Source of the DNA: an uncultured Clostridia bacterium
GTDB lineage: Bacteria > Bacillota_I > Bacilli_A > RF39 > UBA660
Direction: 5' to 3'
NCBI GenBank assembly: GCA_947165365.1
Contig: CAMVAF010000003.1
Span: forward strand, 1,678-65,677
Length of the DNA stretch: 64,000 nt
Under the pieces are notes generated by a model. The model was not told where the DNA came from and searched no databases. It worked only from the letters and a program-made list of their open reading frames with translations. Positions 37,557 through 41,788 of this stretch are shown piece by piece. The position numbers and the translations under genes were made by a program. Position 1 is the first letter of the stretch; the number at the start of each line of letters is the position of its first letter.

Positions 37557-38128
37557 CTCTCACTTTTTTCTTTATCAATTTCATTCTTAACACTTATAAC
37601 TTCACAAAAAACAAAGATAATAAAGGGAACAAAAATAATAAAGAAGAAACCTACGGTATTGTTAATAATATGACTTATAAGACTTAATATTGTTAATTTA
37701 GTAACAAATTTACCAACTATTTGATTAGCAGTAATTTCTTTATCTTCTATTTGATTAGCATCACCTTTTGTTATAAAATACAAAACATTATCTCTTTTTT
37801 CTTTTTTAATAATTCTATGAGTTACTATTTTACCAGAAAAACTACCTTCATTTCCATTATAAACAACAATATCACCAGTATTTAAACTTTCTGGATCTAC
37901 TTTTTTAGATAAAATCATATCTTTAACTTTTAATGTTGGATCCATACTTCCAGTTACTACAGTATAAACACCATATCCTCCTAAATTAACATTATTAGAT
38001 GATACTTTTTGAACAACAATAACCAAAAGTAAACAAATTACAATCACCATTGCTATCGTTTTAAATACTTTAATTAATATTTTTAAAACTTTATTATTCT
38101 CTATCTTTTCTTTCAAATTCTTCATCAT
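37553..38128 (-). CDS. sipW: SipW/Sec11-type signal peptidase I (S26B)
   Basis: TM, then VVTGSMDPTLKVKDMIL (Ser), THRIIK (His), TKGDANQIED and a C-terminal TM. It overlaps the upstream gene by 35 nt. Confidence 0.8.
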   Translation of the reverse strand: MMKNLKEKIENNKVLKILIKVFKTIAMVIVICLLLVIVVQKVSSNNVNLGGYGVYTVVTGSMDPTLKVKDMILSKKVDPESLNTGDIVVYNGNEGSFSGKIVTHRIIKKEKRDNVLYFITKGDANQIEDKEITANQIVGKFVTKLTILSLISHIINNTVGFFFIIFVPFIIFVFCEVISVKNEIDKEKSES

Positions 38129-39257
38129 TATCCTCCAATTTTAAATCCATAATTTTATCCATATATTTATTTATAGCATTATGATATATTTCTTTAATCT
38201 TATTATCACTAGCCACATATTTATTTTTAATTACAACAAATTGTTTAGCAACAATTTCACTTAATTGTTCCTCTGATATCTTATTATCAATATCAATTAT
38301 TTTTTCAACAATATTACCAACTAATCTTTCTTTTAATTCTTCTTTAGATACAGATAAATCTTTAAATTTATTTTCATCTATAGAATTAAGTACTAAATAG
38401 TCAAGTAAAAAACTCTCATCATAATATTGTTTTAATTTACCATTATCATCATAATCTTTTTTTTCTTTATCCTCTTTATTTGTTTCATCAGAAAAATGCT
38501 CTTGTAAATAATTCCATAACTTTACCGCATATTGAAAATTAACATTTTTTAAAATAACATTGGTTTTTTTAATAGGTGATGTTACTAAAGTAATATGTAA
38601 TTTATGAATCATTTTATATACTTCGGAACTTTTAAGATCTCTTATTCGCATTTCTACTTTGTTAATTCTTTCTTCAATATTTAATCCATCTTCCATAATA
38701 TTACTATTAGTATCAATTAAACTATCAATCGAAAAATTAATATTAACATTTTCTCTTCCTACTTTCGAAAAAGCATTATATTCAACTTTTTTTTGACATT
38801 TATTTTTATTCGCTAAGACAATTTTTTGCTTTTTACGACTAATAAATAAAGACATATTTTCAATTAAACTATAGATAAAACGGTTTTCATATGTATTAAA
38901 ACTTTCCTCTTTATTGATATTTAATATTTTCGATGGTTTAACATCTCCTGTCTTCTTATCATAATCTTGAATTAAATTAGTGTTTCTTGATAAATGTTTA
39001 ATACTATCTACCGTTATTCTTCTTGCAAGTTCTATCTTAACAACATCTTCTTCATTAATTATAAAACGATTAGGATTTCTCAAAATATTATCTATATAAA
39101 CAATCGTATCTTCGATAATATCAAGCCACTCATAGTCAGCGTTTACTCTATCAATATCAAGACTTACATGAACTTTTGAATCAACATTATTAGAAAATTT
39201 ATTAATAATATTACTATCTGTACTATTATACAAATCAATGATATTTCCTTCCTGCAT
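38094..39257 (-). CDS. McrC/DUF2357-like partner protein without recognisable nuclease motif
   Basis: Immediately downstream of the McrB-like gene. The N-terminal half (..NPNRFIINEEDVVKIELARRITVDSIKHL.., ..FNTYENRFIYSLIENM..) resembles McrC/DUF2357 N-domains. No PD-(D/E)xK or DAKY-type motif is seen in the C-terminal half. RBS GGAGGGTG. Confidence 0.4.
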   Translation of the reverse strand: MQEGNIIDLYNSTDSNIINKFSNNVDSKVHVSLDIDRVNADYEWLDIIEDTIVYIDNILRNPNRFIINEEDVVKIELARRITVDSIKHLSRNTNLIQDYDKKTGDVKPSKILNINKEESFNTYENRFIYSLIENMSLFISRKKQKIVLANKNKCQKKVEYNAFSKVGRENVNINFSIDSLIDTNSNIMEDGLNIEERINKVEMRIRDLKSSEVYKMIHKLHITLVTSPIKKTNVILKNVNFQYAVKLWNYLQEHFSDETNKEDKEKKDYDDNGKLKQYYDESFLLDYLVLNSIDENKFKDLSVSKEELKERLVGNIVEKIIDIDNKISEEQLSEIVAKQFVVIKNKYVASDNKIKEIYHNAINKYMDKIMDLKLEDNDEEFERKDRE

Positions 39258-39275
39258 AATATCACACCCTCCATA

Positions 39276-40796
39276 TTATGATAATTTTTTAAGTCTTAAA
39301 ACGTATTCCTCACATTCTTTCATTTTACCTTTACCAAATGTTTTATCTAGAAATTCAACAAATCCATCTATCTCATCACGAATATAAGAAACATTTAACT
39401 GTTCAAATTTACGAAGAATCTTACGAGCGATAAAATAGTCAACGCCATTTATTTCTTCTCCACCACAAGCTACATATATTGGTACAAATTTTTTCATATG
39501 CATAACAATACGGTTACCAAAAGCAATACGGAAATGTTGGATAACATAATTGTCCATTTCTTCAATCTTATCAAGCATTTCTTTAGACATTGGATGATCC
39601 CTCATACCTTGTTGAAATAAAGAATCAAGATAAGAATAATTAATATCTTGTGCTTCCGTATCAATTGGTTCAAAAACTTCTCCCTTATCATTAATATCTA
39701 GTGGCATTGCACGGTCATATACTTTATCAGTAACCATGAATGTTGAATCATCATTATTAATGGTTCCAATATACCACATATTAGGTGGTATTTTTAGTTT
39801 TCCATCCATTAACTTTTTAGGATCATTTGGCCAAGAACTAGAAACAAGTTCAACAATCCACTCATCTTTATTAGGCATTTCAAGAATAGATAACATCTCC
39901 GCAAAATAATATTCTACACGAGAGATATTCATCTCATCCAGAATAACAGTATAAACATCATCTGTATATCCTGCAAGATACATTTCTTTTAAAACTTCGG
40001 TTTCATTAAATTTCTTAGTAAATTCATTAAAGTATCCAAATAATTCCGTTCGATCTCTCCATGATGGTTGAACAGAGGCTACACAAGAGTCATGCTTTAA
40101 AAATTTTCCCCAAGCATAAGCAAGAGATGTTTTACCAGTACCAGAAATACCTTGCAAAATAACAAGTTTTGTACTAGCTAAAGAAGATATAAATAATCTT
40201 ATCATCTCTGTTTTATAATAAAGTCTTAATTTCGAAGCCGCAAAATTACGGAATAATTCTACTAATTCTTCTAATGTAAAAGAATTATTATAATTTTGAA
40301 TTTTGTAATTGGCCATTAATTCATCAATATTATTAAGTTTTGCAAAACGTATTCCATCTGCATTTTGATTTTCATTATTTTCACTTGTTTCAACTTCTGA
40401 ATCTTCGCCAGGTTTAAGTCCAAGTTGTGATACTTTCATCGCTAGAATATCTTGTTTTTCTTTCATTAATACTTGAACATCTTTATTTAAAGTTGCAATC
40501 TCTTCAAGCATTGATTCTTGTTCAACCAAAGTTTTTCTAAAACGAATATATTTACGTATCAAATAAAATATTAAAAATCCTATGGAACCAAGTAATATTA
40601 AAAGAATTAATACCGCAATAACAACAAATATCCATTCAGCACCATTAAAATCATCACGATAAAAAGACACAATTTGAGCATAATCAACAACATTAAAAAT
40701 CTCAATAATACCAGTATATAGACCTTTAATAATTGTTAAAAAGCCACCAAAAAACTGTCTTAAAAATTCAAATAAAAACCGAAAAAAAGTCTGCAT
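39276..40796 (-). CDS. membrane-anchored McrB-family (AAA_5) NTPase with coiled-coil linker
   Basis: N-terminal hydrophobic segments (FFRFLFEFLRQFFGGFLTII.., WIFVVIAVLILLILLGSIGFLIFYLI), then the heptad-like TLVEQESMLEEIATLNKDVQVLMKEKQD. Walker A LQGISGTGKTS, then VQPSWRDRTELFGY. The McrB hallmark VILDEMNISRVEYYFAEMLSILE is present, as are WYIGTINNDDSTF and DKVYDRAM. Confidence 0.7.
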   Translation of the reverse strand: MQTFFRFLFEFLRQFFGGFLTIIKGLYTGIIEIFNVVDYAQIVSFYRDDFNGAEWIFVVIAVLILLILLGSIGFLIFYLIRKYIRFRKTLVEQESMLEEIATLNKDVQVLMKEKQDILAMKVSQLGLKPGEDSEVETSENNENQNADGIRFAKLNNIDELMANYKIQNYNNSFTLEELVELFRNFAASKLRLYYKTEMIRLFISSLASTKLVILQGISGTGKTSLAYAWGKFLKHDSCVASVQPSWRDRTELFGYFNEFTKKFNETEVLKEMYLAGYTDDVYTVILDEMNISRVEYYFAEMLSILEMPNKDEWIVELVSSSWPNDPKKLMDGKLKIPPNMWYIGTINNDDSTFMVTDKVYDRAMPLDINDKGEVFEPIDTEAQDINYSYLDSLFQQGMRDHPMSKEMLDKIEEMDNYVIQHFRIAFGNRIVMHMKKFVPIYVACGGEEINGVDYFIARKILRKFEQLNVSYIRDEIDGFVEFLDKTFGKGKMKECEEYVLRLKKLS

Positions 40797-40798
40797 AA

Positions 40799-41788
40799 CT
40801 ATACTCCAATCAATTCATTTATAATAACATTATCTATTTTCTTTAATTTAGGTAATTTCTCTAATTTACCATTTAGTAGAATAAACTCAAAAACTTCTAA
40901 TAACTGAATATTATCACTAAATTCATCATTTATAATAACCCCAAATTTATATCCCTCTCTAATAAGATCATAAACTAAATCTTTATTATTTATAAATTCA
41001 TCATATGATATTTCCATAATCATTCGATCTTTTAAAAAATCTAAATCAAATATTTTAAATAATTGTTTACATTTATTCTTTTTATTAAGTAAATTACTAT
41101 CAAATGTTATAACATATTTTTTATCATAATCAAAATTATTAACATCTCCCATTATTTTAATACTAATTAAAGTATATAAAACCAATAATTTATCTTCATT
41201 AACAGTTCCACTATTATAAACTTTATTAGCAGCTAAAGTACTAAATAATTCTGGTATTTTAACATTACTTTTTAATGTAGTATAAAAAACATTTTGAAGA
41301 TTAGTACTCTTTATATCAAGTTCAAAATCTTTACAAGAACATTTTTTGACAAATTTCTCTTTTATTGCATAATTATTTTTTATCATTGGAAATAATTTTA
41401 TTTTTAAAGCATCCTGTTTTTGATTTCTTTTATTTACTTTCTCTTCCAAACCATTTAATAATTTCATTATTTTTTTATCAGTTAAAGCTTTTTCAAAACA
41501 CAGAATATATTTTAATATCCACAAAGAATTATATATTTCATCATGAATATTATCTATTTTGATATTCTCTTCCTTAATGTAGTCGTATGTCTTTTTTTTA
41601 ACACCATTAATAATATTATTTATAATATTTTTATTATCCAGTATATTATAATATCTTAAATCAAAGTAATAATCGACCATTTGATTAGATAAACCCTTGG
41701 TTGTCTTACCATTAAATATTAATTTAAAATATTCTAAAATGTTTTTACGATCAAAATCTAAACAATCTTTAACAACATTACGACTCAT
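40799..41788 (-). CDS. hypothetical cytoplasmic protein
   Basis: 329 aa with no TM. The gap to the McrB-like gene is 2 nt. No firm motif. Confidence 0.5.
   Translation of the reverse strand: MSRNVVKDCLDFDRKNILEYFKLIFNGKTTKGLSNQMVDYYFDLRYYNILDNKNIINNIINGVKKKTYDYIKEENIKIDNIHDEIYNSLWILKYILCFEKALTDKKIMKLLNGLEEKVNKRNQKQDALKIKLFPMIKNNYAIKEKFVKKCSCKDFELDIKSTNLQNVFYTTLKSNVKIPELFSTLAANKVYNSGTVNEDKLLVLYTLISIKIMGDVNNFDYDKKYVITFDSNLLNKKNKCKQLFKIFDLDFLKDRMIMEISYDEFINNKDLVYDLIREGYKFGVIINDEFSDNIQLLEVFEFILLNGKLEKLPKLKKIDNVIINELIGV

What the first reader, a model, noticed from the sequence alone, without database searches (positions are those of the whole stretch)
38094..41788. Membrane-anchored McrB-family NTPase with a McrC-like partner lacking a visible nuclease motif, inside a secretion/fibre operon
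Seen (NTPase): the 506-aa protein has hydrophobic N-terminal segments, a heptad linker and an AAA_5 core. The core motifs are LQGISGTGKTS, VQPSWRDRTELFGY, VILDEMNISRVEYYFAEMLSILE and YIGTINNDDSTF.
Known: these mirror E. coli McrB blocks as I recall them (GPPGxGKTF / VQFHQSYSYEDFIQGY / IIDEINRANLSKVFGEVMMLME / IIGLMNTADRS).
Seen (partner and context): the downstream 387-aa protein has a McrC/DUF2357-like N-half (YENRF..) but no PD-(D/E)xK that I can see. A 329-aa unknown gene precedes the NTPase by 2 nt. The trio is flanked on both sides by SipW-module genes with overlapping junctions.
Known: McrBC and relatives are cytoplasmic nucleic-acid-targeting defence systems.
Inference, hypothesis 1: a McrBC-derived motor has been exapted to drive or gate fibre export.
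Inference, hypothesis 2: a membrane-acting, nuclease-free McrBC-like defence cassette is nested in the operon.
I have not seen either arrangement described.
Basis: partly seen in the sequence, partly recalled or inferred. Interest (0 to 1): 0.8.

Follow-up and report, generated by a model that had tools for sequence, protein, structure and literature searches.

The report
Restriction-enzyme motor reused in fibre operon
A membrane-anchored, nuclease-free descendant of the McrBC restriction enzyme sits as a highly conserved core gene pair inside an operon for secreted surface fibres in uncultured gut bacteria; this arrangement was named (CoCoPALM) in 2024, but its function has never been tested.

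Summary
On the minus strand lie a 329-aa gene, a 506-aa membrane-anchored McrB-type NTPase and a 387-aa McrC-type (DUF2357) partner without a detectable nuclease. They are packed between SipW-type signal peptidases and secreted proteins with SipW-type signal peptides.

The claim that this is undescribed is wrong. [quoted passage not shown] The window's NTPase carries their diagnostic NxD motif.

In 83 related loci the partner is adjacent in 81 and a SipW homologue is present in 77. Gene gaps are 1-14 nt, and the NTPase is the most conserved gene of the module. The membrane-anchored form was not found on plasmids or phages. This favours a built-in fibre-biogenesis component over a nested defence cassette.

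Apparently new here:
- The 329-aa protein is predicted to have a degenerate EAL-like fold.
- In 13 genomes it is fused to the cytoplasmic end of a complete SipW peptidase, which ties the NTPase module physically to the peptidase.

Mechanism remains inferred. Verdict: a real, typical member of a named but uncharacterised kind.

The parts
39276..40796 (-). McrB-type AAA+ NTPase (506 aa). It has an amphipathic N-terminus, a TM helix at about residues 55-80, a basic stretch, a roughly 35-aa coiled coil, and an AAA+ core with the NxD signature.
Evidence: The best PDB hits are E. coli McrB only. It matches PADLOC PDC-M26A at 7e-34. In 131 relatives N347 and D349 are invariant, position 348 varies and position 350 is D or E. 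Walker A GxSGTGK[ST], Walker B D287-E288 and R362 are invariant or nearly so.
38094..39257 (-). McrC-type partner (387 aa): DUF2357 finger domain with a helical C-terminal region and no nuclease.
   Evidence: Pfam DUF2357, E = 1.1e-11. The AF2 model (pLDDT 69) shows a helical bundle plus a long beta-hairpin at residues 149-186. The C-terminus is a short hairpin plus four helices. No nuclease appears by Pfam, PDB or Foldseek. It is adjacent to the NTPase in 81 of 83 loci.
40799..41788 (-). X protein (329 aa): N-terminal six-helix bundle plus a C-terminal degenerate, truncated EAL-like alpha/beta domain. It is cytoplasmic and fused to SipW in some relatives.
   Evidence: AF2 model pLDDT 81, pTM 0.82. 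The top 50 Foldseek PDB hits are all EAL-domain entries (best E = 3e-5, TM by target 0.42-0.47, about 180 columns). There is no Pfam EAL hit, and in the family alignment only Y225 is invariant, so the canonical EAL residues do not appear to be conserved. In 13 loci it is fused after TM2 of a full SipW. The gap to the NTPase gene has a median of 2 nt in 61 loci.
37553..38128 (-). Active SipW-type (archaeal/ER-type) signal peptidase I.
   Evidence: TIGR02228 E = 4e-26, NF046067 E = 4e-23, Pfam Peptidase_S26. It keeps the GSM, THR and KGD motifs. It lies directly after the partner gene, with a median gap of 1 nt in 56 loci.
42734..43219 (-). SipW-family pseudo-peptidase (161 aa). It keeps both TM helices but has lost the catalytic Ser and His.
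   Evidence: NF046067 E = 6.7e-4. It merges with the SipW family on iterated HMM search.
41803..42732 (-). 309-aa secreted or anchored protein with an N-terminal signal. It is the conserved neighbour upstream of X.
   Evidence: N-terminus. It is found upstream of X in about 45 loci.
36942..37556 (-). 204-aa secreted protein with a SipW-type signal peptide (..NTYAWF..).
   Evidence: Sequence. It follows SipW in most loci. It has no TasA match at sequence level.
36331..36915 (+). 194-aa secreted protein with a SipW-type signal (..ETYAKYS..), on the opposite strand.
   Evidence: The same inverted orientation is seen in about 49 loci.
35355..36134 (-). 259-aa secreted protein of the module.
34348..35346 (-). 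332-aa secreted protein with a SipW-type signal (..STYAWFS..).
24913..34329 (-). Giant 3138-aa surface protein with an N-terminal signal or anchor.
   Evidence: It has no Pfam domain. Homologues or other giant ORFs occur in the module in most loci.
19329..24747 (-). Second half of the supercluster: 364-aa and 176-aa proteins, a pseudo-SipW (22558-23103), a 192-aa secreted protein, an active SipW (21214-21954), and 194-aa and 419-aa secreted proteins.
   Evidence: In relatives the same genes lie immediately upstream of the 309-aa gene, X and the NTPase.

Best explanation
This is a CoCoPALM module: a McrBC restriction system that has lost its DNA-binding and nuclease parts and become a fixed subunit of a SipW-dependent surface-fibre or adhesin machine.

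Shown:
- The 506-aa protein is a McrB-type AAA+ NTPase of the NxD clade with an N-terminal TM helix and a short coiled coil.
- Its partner keeps the McrC finger domain (DUF2357) but has no detectable nuclease.
- The pair, usually with the X gene, is embedded at 1-14-nt spacing among SipW peptidases, secreted proteins with SipW-type signals and a giant protein, in very many gut Bacillota.
- X is fused to the cytoplasmic C-terminus of SipW in 13 genomes.

Inferred:
- Six NTPase subunits form a ring held under the membrane by their TM and coiled-coil stalks.
- The McrC-like finger plugs the ring and triggers stepwise NTP hydrolysis, as in McrBC. GTP is expected by family precedent but is untested for NxD proteins.
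- The resulting movement acts through X on the SipW or pseudo-SipW membrane complex. It would gate or time the processing and assembly of fibre subunits, rather than thread a substrate through the pore.
For: Family identity:
- Only McrB is matched in the PDB, and PDC-M26A is matched at 7e-34.
- The motif N-x-D-[D/E] is invariant in 131 relatives. This is as Bell et al. describe for the NxD clade that contains CoCoPALM.
- The partner matches DUF2357 at E = 1e-11. [quoted passage not shown]

Integration into the fibre operon:
- Partner adjacent in 81 of 83 loci and SipW family present in 77 of 83, in species-level genomes of uncultured Bacilli and Clostridia.
- A SipW-like gene is present in 55 of 80 loci of a multi-TM clade, typically directly upstream of the NTPase.
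- Median gaps: X to NTPase 2 nt, NTPase to partner 14 nt, partner to SipW 1 nt.

Physical link:
- SipW-X fusion proteins occur in 13 loci, with X placed after the second TM helix.

Constraint:
- The NTPase is 55-79% identical across loci in which SipW is 31-46% and X 26-32% identical.

Not mobile:
- No full-length match in 72,556 plasmids. Only soluble relatives at 38% identity or less appear in the plasmid, phage and IMG/VR collections.
- The window is core chromosome, with EF-Tu, EF-G, NrdD and TyrRS.
Against: - No experiment exists for any member. The published description is one paragraph.
- The B. subtilis SipW-TasA system works without a dedicated NTPase (established knowledge), so an energy requirement is not obvious.
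- The secreted proteins show no sequence similarity to TasA in the PDB. 'Fibre' therefore rests on the signal-peptide type and the SipW linkage.
- The partner model is only moderately confident (pLDDT 69), and Foldseek did not recover McrC.
- A small sub-clade (six loci) has X, the NTPase and the partner without a SipW gene in the flanks, next to cell-division genes.
- Ring formation, partner plugging and topology are all inferred by homology.
Confidence: 0.6

Rival explanations
1. It is a nuclease-free, membrane-acting defence or abortive-infection cassette nested in the operon. The McrBC-like pair would sense phage attack, for example through the fibre as receptor, and damage the membrane or shut down the cell.
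For: The ancestry is in McrBC defence systems. The NTPase matches the PADLOC candidate PDC-M26A. The nearest soluble relatives are CoCoNuT-like four-gene systems on plasmids and on an unverified phage scaffold. Surface fibres are common phage receptors (general knowledge).
Against: No effector domain was found in the partner or in X. The gene position is fixed, with 1-14-nt gaps in about 80 species. The NTPase is the most conserved gene of the module, unlike typical fast-turnover defence genes. The membrane-anchored form was not found on plasmids or in the phage or viral collections searched. The SipW-X fusion ties it to the peptidase. The partner has no PADLOC hit.
Confidence: 0.1
2. It is an inside-out signalling switch rather than a motor. 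X would bind a cytoplasmic nucleotide messenger through its EAL-like domain. Together with the NTPase ring, used as a timer, it would control the extracellular SipW protease and hence display of the giant adhesin, in analogy to LapD-LapG-LapA or FimX-PilZ-PilB.
For: X is predicted to have an EAL-like fold. Its top Foldseek hits include the degenerate c-di-GMP receptors FimX and LapD. X is fused to SipW in 13 genomes. A giant surface protein lies in the same operon. X is translationally coupled to the NTPase gene.
Against: There is no sequence-level EAL signal. The barrel is truncated, and the canonical EAL and DDFGTG residues do not appear to be conserved: only Y225 is invariant. X evolves fast, at 26-32% identity. 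Clostridial members lack X altogether. No GGDEF, EAL or PilZ gene was seen in the window.
Confidence: 0.15
3. It is a cell-division or envelope-growth factor. The FtsB-like anchor would recruit the NTPase to the divisome, and the fibre genes would be neighbours only.
For: Bell et al. report homology of the N-terminal module to FtsB. In one sub-clade the trio lies beside rsmH, PBP2B/FtsI, MraY and FtsW. Three of 12 family members give sub-threshold DivIC or FtsL hits.
Against: The FtsB similarity was not reproducible here (hhalign probability 2%). PDB profile hits are generic coiled coils. About 75 of 83 loci have no division genes but do have SipW. In some sub-clade loci the division genes are on the opposite strand.
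Confidence: 0.07

Closest known systems
CoCoPALM systems (Bell, Makarova, Wolf, Koonin, eLife 2024, PMC11090510)
   Same: It shares the NxD-motif McrB-type NTPase with an N-terminal TM plus coiled-coil module, the McrC homologue without a nuclease, and the tight association with signal-peptidase-family genes in Bacillota.
   Different: The paper gives one paragraph and no function. It does not mention the X protein, an EAL-like fold, SipW-X fusions or pseudo-SipW paralogues. In this window the partner has only a short helical tail rather than a long coiled coil. The FtsB homology could not be reproduced here.
Canonical McrBC (E. coli, T. gammatolerans; PMC7680126, PMC6624300)
   Same: It shares the AAA+ core with Walker A and B, the Asn/Asp signature loop and a trans-acting Arg, a downstream partner with the DUF2357 finger domain, and the gene order B then C.
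   Different: There is no N-terminal DNA-binding domain, which is replaced by a TM helix and coiled coil. There is no PD-(D/E)xK nuclease. The signature is NxD instead of NxxD. Only one Arg (R362) lies where McrB has two. The context is a chromosomal fibre operon rather than a defence island.
CoCoNuT systems / PADLOC PDC-M26
   Same: These are the closest soluble relatives of the NTPase core (up to 38% identity, NxD clade), with long DUF2357 partners.
   Different: They are soluble proteins of about 800 aa with long N-terminal regions. They are accompanied by a >1000-aa AAA-domain (helicase-like) gene and another upstream gene, and are found on plasmids. They are predicted to be RNA-targeting defence systems.
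SipW-TasA-TapA (B. subtilis) and SipW-BsaABC (C. perfringens, PMC11580942)
   Same: They share a SipW-type peptidase encoded with several small secreted proteins that carry the cognate signal peptide, giving surface fibres or matrix.
   Different: Those operons have no McrBC-like pair, no X protein and no pseudo-SipW. The secreted proteins here have no detectable sequence similarity to TasA.
LapD-LapG-LapA and FimX-PilZ-PilB (functional analogy only)
   Same: A degenerate EAL-type cytoplasmic domain is coupled to an extracytoplasmic protease or to a hexameric assembly NTPase, and controls a giant adhesin or a pilus.
   Different: No homology was shown beyond a fold-level match of X. No GGDEF or PilZ domain is present, and ligand binding is untested.

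Membership tests
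McrB-type AAA+ NTPase | AAA+ core with Walker A GxxGxGK[ST] and Walker B DExx | tested here: met
   GISGTGKT and LDEMN are present. G216, G219, G221, K222, D287 and E288 are invariant in 131 relatives.
McrB-type AAA+ NTPase | Signature Nx(x)D loop after sensor-1 | tested here: met
   The motif is T-[AI]-N347-x-D349-[D/E]-S-T. N and D are present in 131 of 131 relatives. This is the NxD variant.
McrB-type AAA+ NTPase | Closer to McrB than to MoxR or other AAA+ clades | tested here: met
   The only PDB hits below E = 0.01 are three McrB sequences. PADLOC PDC-M26A is matched at 7e-34. Pfam AAA_5 alone is sub-threshold.
McrB-type AAA+ NTPase | N-terminal DNA-binding specificity domain | tested here: not met
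   The N-terminus is an amphipathic segment, a TM helix and a coiled coil.
McrB-type AAA+ NTPase | GTP-specific hydrolysis stimulated by McrC | not testable with these tools
   This needs biochemistry. No NxD-clade protein has been characterised (PMC11090510).
McrC | N-terminal DUF2357 finger domain, encoded directly downstream of McrB | tested here: met
   Pfam PF09823, E = 1.1e-11, above the gathering score. The gap to the NTPase gene is 18 nt here and has a median of 14 nt in 81 loci.
McrC | C-terminal PD-(D/E)xK nuclease | tested here: not met
   No nuclease family appears in Pfam, NCBIfam, PADLOC or PDB searches. The modelled C-terminus is a hairpin plus helices. Foldseek found nothing. 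The model is of moderate confidence.
CoCoPALM (Bell et al. 2024) | McrB homologue of the NxD clade | tested here: met
   compared with the description.
CoCoPALM (Bell et al. 2024) | FtsB-like TM plus coiled-coil domain fused to the GTPase | tested here: inconclusive
   The architecture is present: a TM helix, a basic stretch and a roughly 35-aa zipper. Homology was not reproduced. DivIC and FtsL hits are sub-threshold in 3 of 12 members.
CoCoPALM (Bell et al. 2024) | Association with signal-peptidase-family genes | tested here: met
   The window has two active SipW genes and two pseudo-SipW genes. SipW is present in 77 of 83 and 55 of 80 related loci.
CoCoPALM (Bell et al. 2024) | Coiled coils on both the McrB and McrC homologues ('usually') | tested here: inconclusive
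   The NTPase has a short coiled coil. The window's partner has only C-terminal helices. Clostridial orthologues carry a 340-430-aa K/A/E/R-rich helical tail.
EAL domain (for the 329-aa X protein) | EAL-type (beta/alpha) barrel fold | tested here: inconclusive
   The top 50 Foldseek hits are all EAL-domain entries, with probability 0.97-1.00 and best E = 3e-5. However, TM is only 0.42-0.47 over about 180 columns, and the domain is about 155 aa against about 240 aa for a full EAL domain.
EAL domain (for the 329-aa X protein) | Conserved catalytic and c-di-GMP-binding residues (EALxR, N, ExxE, DDFGTG, KxD, E, Q) | tested here: not met
   There is no Pfam EAL hit. Only Y225 is invariant in 26 sequences, and by eye the DDFGTG position reads IINDEF, ILDS and similar. 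No residue-level structural alignment was available.
SipW (archaeal/ER-type signal peptidase I) | Family profile match plus catalytic Ser, His and Asp motifs | tested here: met
   For 37553-38128: TIGR02228 E = 4e-26, with GSM, THR and KGD motifs. The paralogues at 42734-43219 and 22558-23103 fail the catalytic-residue test.
TasA/camelysin family (for the small secreted proteins) | Sequence or fold similarity to TasA | tested here: not met
   There are no Pfam or NCBIfam hits. Family profiles find no TasA in the PDB. Only the SipW-type signal peptide and the linkage are shared.

The most novel reading that the evidence does not exclude
X-NTPase-partner could be an inside-out signalling machine. 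X would act as a degenerate EAL-type receptor that reads a cytoplasmic nucleotide signal. The McrBC-derived ring would convert NTP hydrolysis into a conformational step. Because X is tethered to SipW, this step would switch the extracellular signal peptidase on or off, and so control the release or polymerisation of fibre subunits and a giant adhesin. That would be a Gram-positive counterpart of LapD-LapG built from a restriction enzyme.
Probability: 0.12. Interest if true: 0.85.

Novelty: new member of a known kind. Interest (0 to 1): 0.45.

Why it matters
McrBC is a textbook DNA-restriction motor. Here its NTPase ring and activator have been stripped of DNA-binding and nuclease parts, and are kept under strong constraint inside a secretion and fibre operon. 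Relatives occur in at least 596 species-representative genomes, mostly of uncultured gut Bacillota. The family is also large, with more than 8,000 50%-identity clusters at E <= 1e-3.

If it acts in fibre or adhesin biogenesis, it would be a clear case of a defence machine recruited to cell-surface assembly. It would also mean that SipW/TasA-type fibres, thought to self-assemble without dedicated energy input, have an energised or regulated variant.

The SipW-X fusion and the EAL-like fold give concrete, testable contacts and a candidate ligand-sensing site. These organisms are abundant in human and ruminant guts, so their adhesion apparatus is of ecological interest.

Tried and rejected
- MoxR or another AAA+ assignment: rejected, because only McrB is matched in the PDB.
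- Hidden nuclease in the partner: none found by Pfam, NCBIfam, PADLOC, PDB sequence or profile searches, or Foldseek. The Foldseek result is weak evidence, because the model is elongated and has pLDDT 69.
- FtsB homology of the N-terminal module: not reproduced.
- TasA homology of the secreted proteins: not detected at sequence level.
- X domain hidden in the long clostridial partners: rejected. The hhalign probability is 0.2%, and the extension is a K/A/E/R-rich helix.
- Plasmid or phage carriage of the membrane-anchored form: not found.
- Promoter and terminator scan: uninformative in this AT-rich DNA, with counts equal to shuffles.
- Supplementary files of Bell et al. held here: no CoCoPALM details.
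- Later literature on CoCoPALM, or on McrB together with signal peptidase: none in the library.
- Source names for the proteins: none.
- Regex classification of active against dead SipW across the loci: too noisy to use beyond the window.

Full report
**1. What is there**

The window has about 25% G+C. It carries core genes: EF-Tu, EF-G, NrdD, a PcsB-like hydrolase, TyrRS and DeoC.

On the minus strand a supercluster of about 24 kb runs from 43219 down to 19329. In reading order it contains:
- a 161-aa SipW-like protein
- a 309-aa secreted protein
- the 329-aa protein, here called X
- the 506-aa NTPase, here called B
- the 387-aa partner, here called C
- a 191-aa SipW
- a 204-aa secreted protein
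- an inverted 194-aa secreted protein on the plus strand
- 259-aa and 332-aa secreted proteins
- a 3138-aa giant protein
- a second set of SipW paralogues and secreted proteins

Junctions are tight. X to B is 2 nt, B to C is 18 nt, C overlaps SipW by 35 nt, and SipW overlaps the next gene by 4 nt.

**2. Identity of the NTPase**

B matches only E. coli McrB among solved structures (E = 5e-4 to 2e-3, residues 143-363). It matches the PADLOC candidate-defence profile PDC-M26A at 7e-34. Pfam AAA_5 is sub-threshold.

A search of 1.84 billion cluster representatives finds 8,344 relatives at E <= 1e-3 and 759 at E <= 1e-30.

In an alignment of 131 of these relatives the following hold:
- Walker A is G-x-S-G-T-G-K-[ST].
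- The Walker B residues D287 and E288, and R362, are invariant or nearly so.
- The signature loop reads T-[A/I]-N347-x-D349-[D/E]-S-T. N347 and D349 are present in 131 of 131 sequences, position 348 is variable, and position 350 is D (95) or E (32).

This is exactly the "NxD, usually followed by E or a second D" variant. Bell et al. use that variant to define the branch of McrB that holds CoCoNuT and CoCoPALM systems (PMC11090510).

The N-terminus has four parts:
- a conserved amphipathic segment at residues 1-47
- a strong TM helix at about residues 55-80
- the basic stretch RKYIRFRK
- a roughly 35-residue leucine zipper

A profile of this region hits only designed and natural coiled coils. 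By the positive-inside rule the AAA+ domain should be cytoplasmic. That is an inference.

The closest roughly 45 cluster representatives all carry one to five N-terminal TM helices. More distant ones (745-813 aa) have none.

**3. Identity of the partner**

C matches Pfam DUF2357, the McrC N-terminal finger domain, above threshold (E = 1.1e-11, residues 41-157). Nothing else is matched in Pfam, NCBIfam, PADLOC or the PDB.

An AlphaFold model built from 59 homologues is of moderate quality (pLDDT 69). It shows a helical bundle, a long beta-hairpin at residues 149-186 and a disordered tip. This fits the "helical bundle plus long beta-sheet stalk" described for the McrC finger (PMC7680126).

The C-terminal third is a short hairpin plus four helices, not an alpha/beta nuclease core. 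Foldseek found no significant match.

**4. It is already named**

[quoted passage not shown] In it the GTPase is fused to a domain homologous to FtsB, with transmembrane and coiled-coil helices. [quoted passage not shown]

They call these systems CoCoPALM and defer their analysis to a later paper. No later paper using the term, or combining McrB with signal peptidase, is in the library.

The window's locus meets three criteria: the NxD motif, the signal-peptidase association and the missing nuclease.

The FtsB-like criterion is met as architecture only. I could not reproduce homology. DivIC and FtsL hits were sub-threshold in 3 of 12 members, and hhalign against FtsB gave 2% probability.

**5. 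Is the association real and general?**

A scan of one genome per GTDB species found at least 596 stretches encoding relatives. The best 80 (54-79% identical) are MAGs of uncultured Bacilli and Clostridia. The Bacilli are variously labelled Tenericutes, Erysipelotrichaceae or Clostridium sp. CAG:567. The Clostridia include Acutalibacteraceae and Ruminococcus sp. CAG:488.

I built family HMMs from the window's proteins and searched these loci:
- C is adjacent to B in 81 of 83 loci.
- A SipW-family gene is present in 77 of 83 loci.
- The Bacilli share the order SipW-like, 309-aa gene, X, B, C, SipW, 204-aa gene, inverted 194-aa gene, 259-aa gene, 332-aa gene, giant gene.
- The Clostridia have 259-aa gene, 332-aa gene, SipW, B, a long C, then a giant gene of 2400-2600 aa.

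Median gaps are 2 nt (X to B, n = 61), 14 nt (B to C, n = 81) and 1 nt (C to SipW, n = 56).

A second scan, of metagenomes, used distant multi-TM relatives of about 35% identity. A SipW-like gene was present in 55 of 80 loci, typically directly upstream of B. It was preceded by small proteins with GFAAW-type signals and followed by an ABC transporter.

B is by far the most conserved gene of the module: 55-79% identity. The other genes are lower, at 33-56% for C, 31-46% for SipW, 26-32% for X and 25-57% for the secreted proteins.

The membrane-anchored form has no counterpart covering at least 80% of its length in 72,556 plasmids. Neither the phage collection nor IMG/VR holds a close relative. 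What is found there are soluble relatives at 38% identity or less, in CoCoNuT-like four-gene systems.

Together these results argue that the pair is a fixed component of the SipW module and not a mobile cassette that happens to sit in it.

**6. The third gene**

X has no family match and evolves fast.

Its AlphaFold model is confident (pLDDT 81, pTM 0.82). It has an N-terminal six-helix bundle and a C-terminal alpha/beta domain.

The top 50 Foldseek PDB hits are all EAL-domain entries. They include Bd1971, FimX, MucR, MorA, LapD and RocR. The best E-value is 3e-5, probability is 0.97-1.00, TM by target is 0.42-0.47, and about 180 columns align.

The domain is shorter than a full EAL barrel. 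No sequence-level EAL signal appears. In the family alignment only Y225 is invariant, so the canonical catalytic and binding residues do not appear to be conserved. I therefore treat "EAL-like" as a fold-level lead, not as membership.

In 13 related loci X is the C-terminal part of a 650-756-aa protein. The N-terminal part of that protein is a complete SipW:
- TM1
- an S24/S26 domain with the Ser and His motifs
- TM2
- an acidic linker of about 150-200 aa

This fusion places X in the cytoplasm, directly behind the peptidase's second TM helix. It is strong genomic evidence that X, and by operon coupling B and C, work with SipW. Bell et al. mention neither X nor EAL.

**7. How it most likely works**

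Shown:
- The domain identities.
- The membrane anchor.
- The lack of a detectable nuclease or DNA-binding domain.
- The conserved embedding in the operon.
- The SipW-X fusion.

Inferred from McrBC structures (PMC7680126, PMC6624300):
- B forms a hexamer.
- C inserts its finger into the pore and triggers sequential NTP hydrolysis through a Lys or Arg acting on the N/D loop.

If so, the pore is occupied. Threading an exported polypeptide through it, as an unfoldase would, is unlikely.

I therefore favour a membrane-tethered stepping or switching device. It would act through X on the SipW or pseudo-SipW complex to gate the processing or assembly of fibre subunits and the giant protein. My confidence in this explanation as a whole is 0.6; the CoCoPALM identity is its best-supported part, and any specific mechanism is much less certain.

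Three rivals remain:
- A pure signalling switch with X as nucleotide receptor (0.15).
- A nested defence module (0.1).
- A division-related role (0.07). This is suggested by the reported FtsB likeness and by a sub-clade lying next to rsmH, PBP2B, MraY and FtsW.

**8. Verdict**

The novelty claim is not upheld.

The locus is a typical member of a named but experimentally untouched kind. The additions made here are:
- the SipW-X fusion
- the EAL-like fold of X
- the catalytically dead SipW paralogues
- the extreme conservation of the NTPase
- the extension of the SipW link to multi-TM relatives

These additions make the system more testable.

Noticed in passing
window 42734-43219 (-) and 22558-23103 (-): Two SipW-family paralogues keep both TM helices but have lost the catalytic Ser (GSM) and His (THR). 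Each sits near an active SipW (37553-38128 and 21214-21954). They may be pseudo-peptidase partners.
   Followed up: partly
L040, L042, L044-L047, L049-L051, L062, L065, L067, L078 (gene just upstream of the NTPase): These loci encode 650-756-aa fusion proteins. Each has a complete SipW-type peptidase, an acidic linker of about 150-200 aa and the full X domain.
   Followed up: yes
window 36331-36915 (+): This is the only plus-strand gene inside the minus-strand supercluster, and it encodes a protein with a SipW-type signal. The same inversion relative to the NTPase is kept in about 49 related loci.
   Followed up: partly
L064, L069, L073, L074, L083, L056: This sub-clade has a 501-aa NTPase. 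X, the NTPase and the partner are followed by a bitopic membrane protein with DxDxDG calcium-type repeats. In L064, L069, L073 and L083 they lie beside division and cell-wall genes (variously rsmH, PBP2B/FtsI, MraY and FtsW). No SipW gene is in the flanks, though L064 has a 643-aa protein with a SipW-type signal.
   Followed up: partly
L104-L175 (for example L115:4891-17005): Multi-TM relatives (3-5 TM helices, about 607 aa) occur in human-gut metagenomes. The order is small GFAAW-signal proteins, SipW (320-370 aa), NTPase, partner. These are followed by an ABC ATPase, a permease, an 810-aa protein and a lipoprotein.
   Followed up: partly
L052-L055, L058, L063, L066, L070, L072, L075, L076, L079, L080, L082: The clostridial partners are 680-820 aa. 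The whole short partner is followed by a highly charged tail of 340-430 aa. It is a K/A/E/R-rich, probably single-helix or coiled-coil region in L053, but has a different composition in L055. These loci have no X gene.
   Followed up: partly
window 62279-62368 and 62592-62683 (-): Two copies of the Rfam PGK RNA motif (RF03040) lie upstream of an LtaS-like sulfatase-family gene (60121-62211). A related sulfatase gene is inserted into the fibre module in L001-L004.
   Followed up: no
window 52571-58414 (-): A separate sortase-type pilus locus is present. It has a 795-aa protein with five SpaA repeats, a sortase (55498-56049), and 228-aa and 727-aa proteins with no Pfam family detected at E <= 1e-4 (228-aa) or E <= 1e-5 (727-aa).
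   Followed up: no
window 24913-34329 (-): The 3138-aa ORF has an N-terminal signal or anchor and no Pfam domain above threshold. The giant proteins in related loci are only partly homologous to it.
   Followed up: no
window 39276-40796 (-), residues 130-195: A motif of unknown role lies between the coiled coil and the AAA+ core: R150-F151-x-x-L154-x-x-x-D158. It is invariant in 19 diverse membrane-anchored relatives.
   Followed up: no
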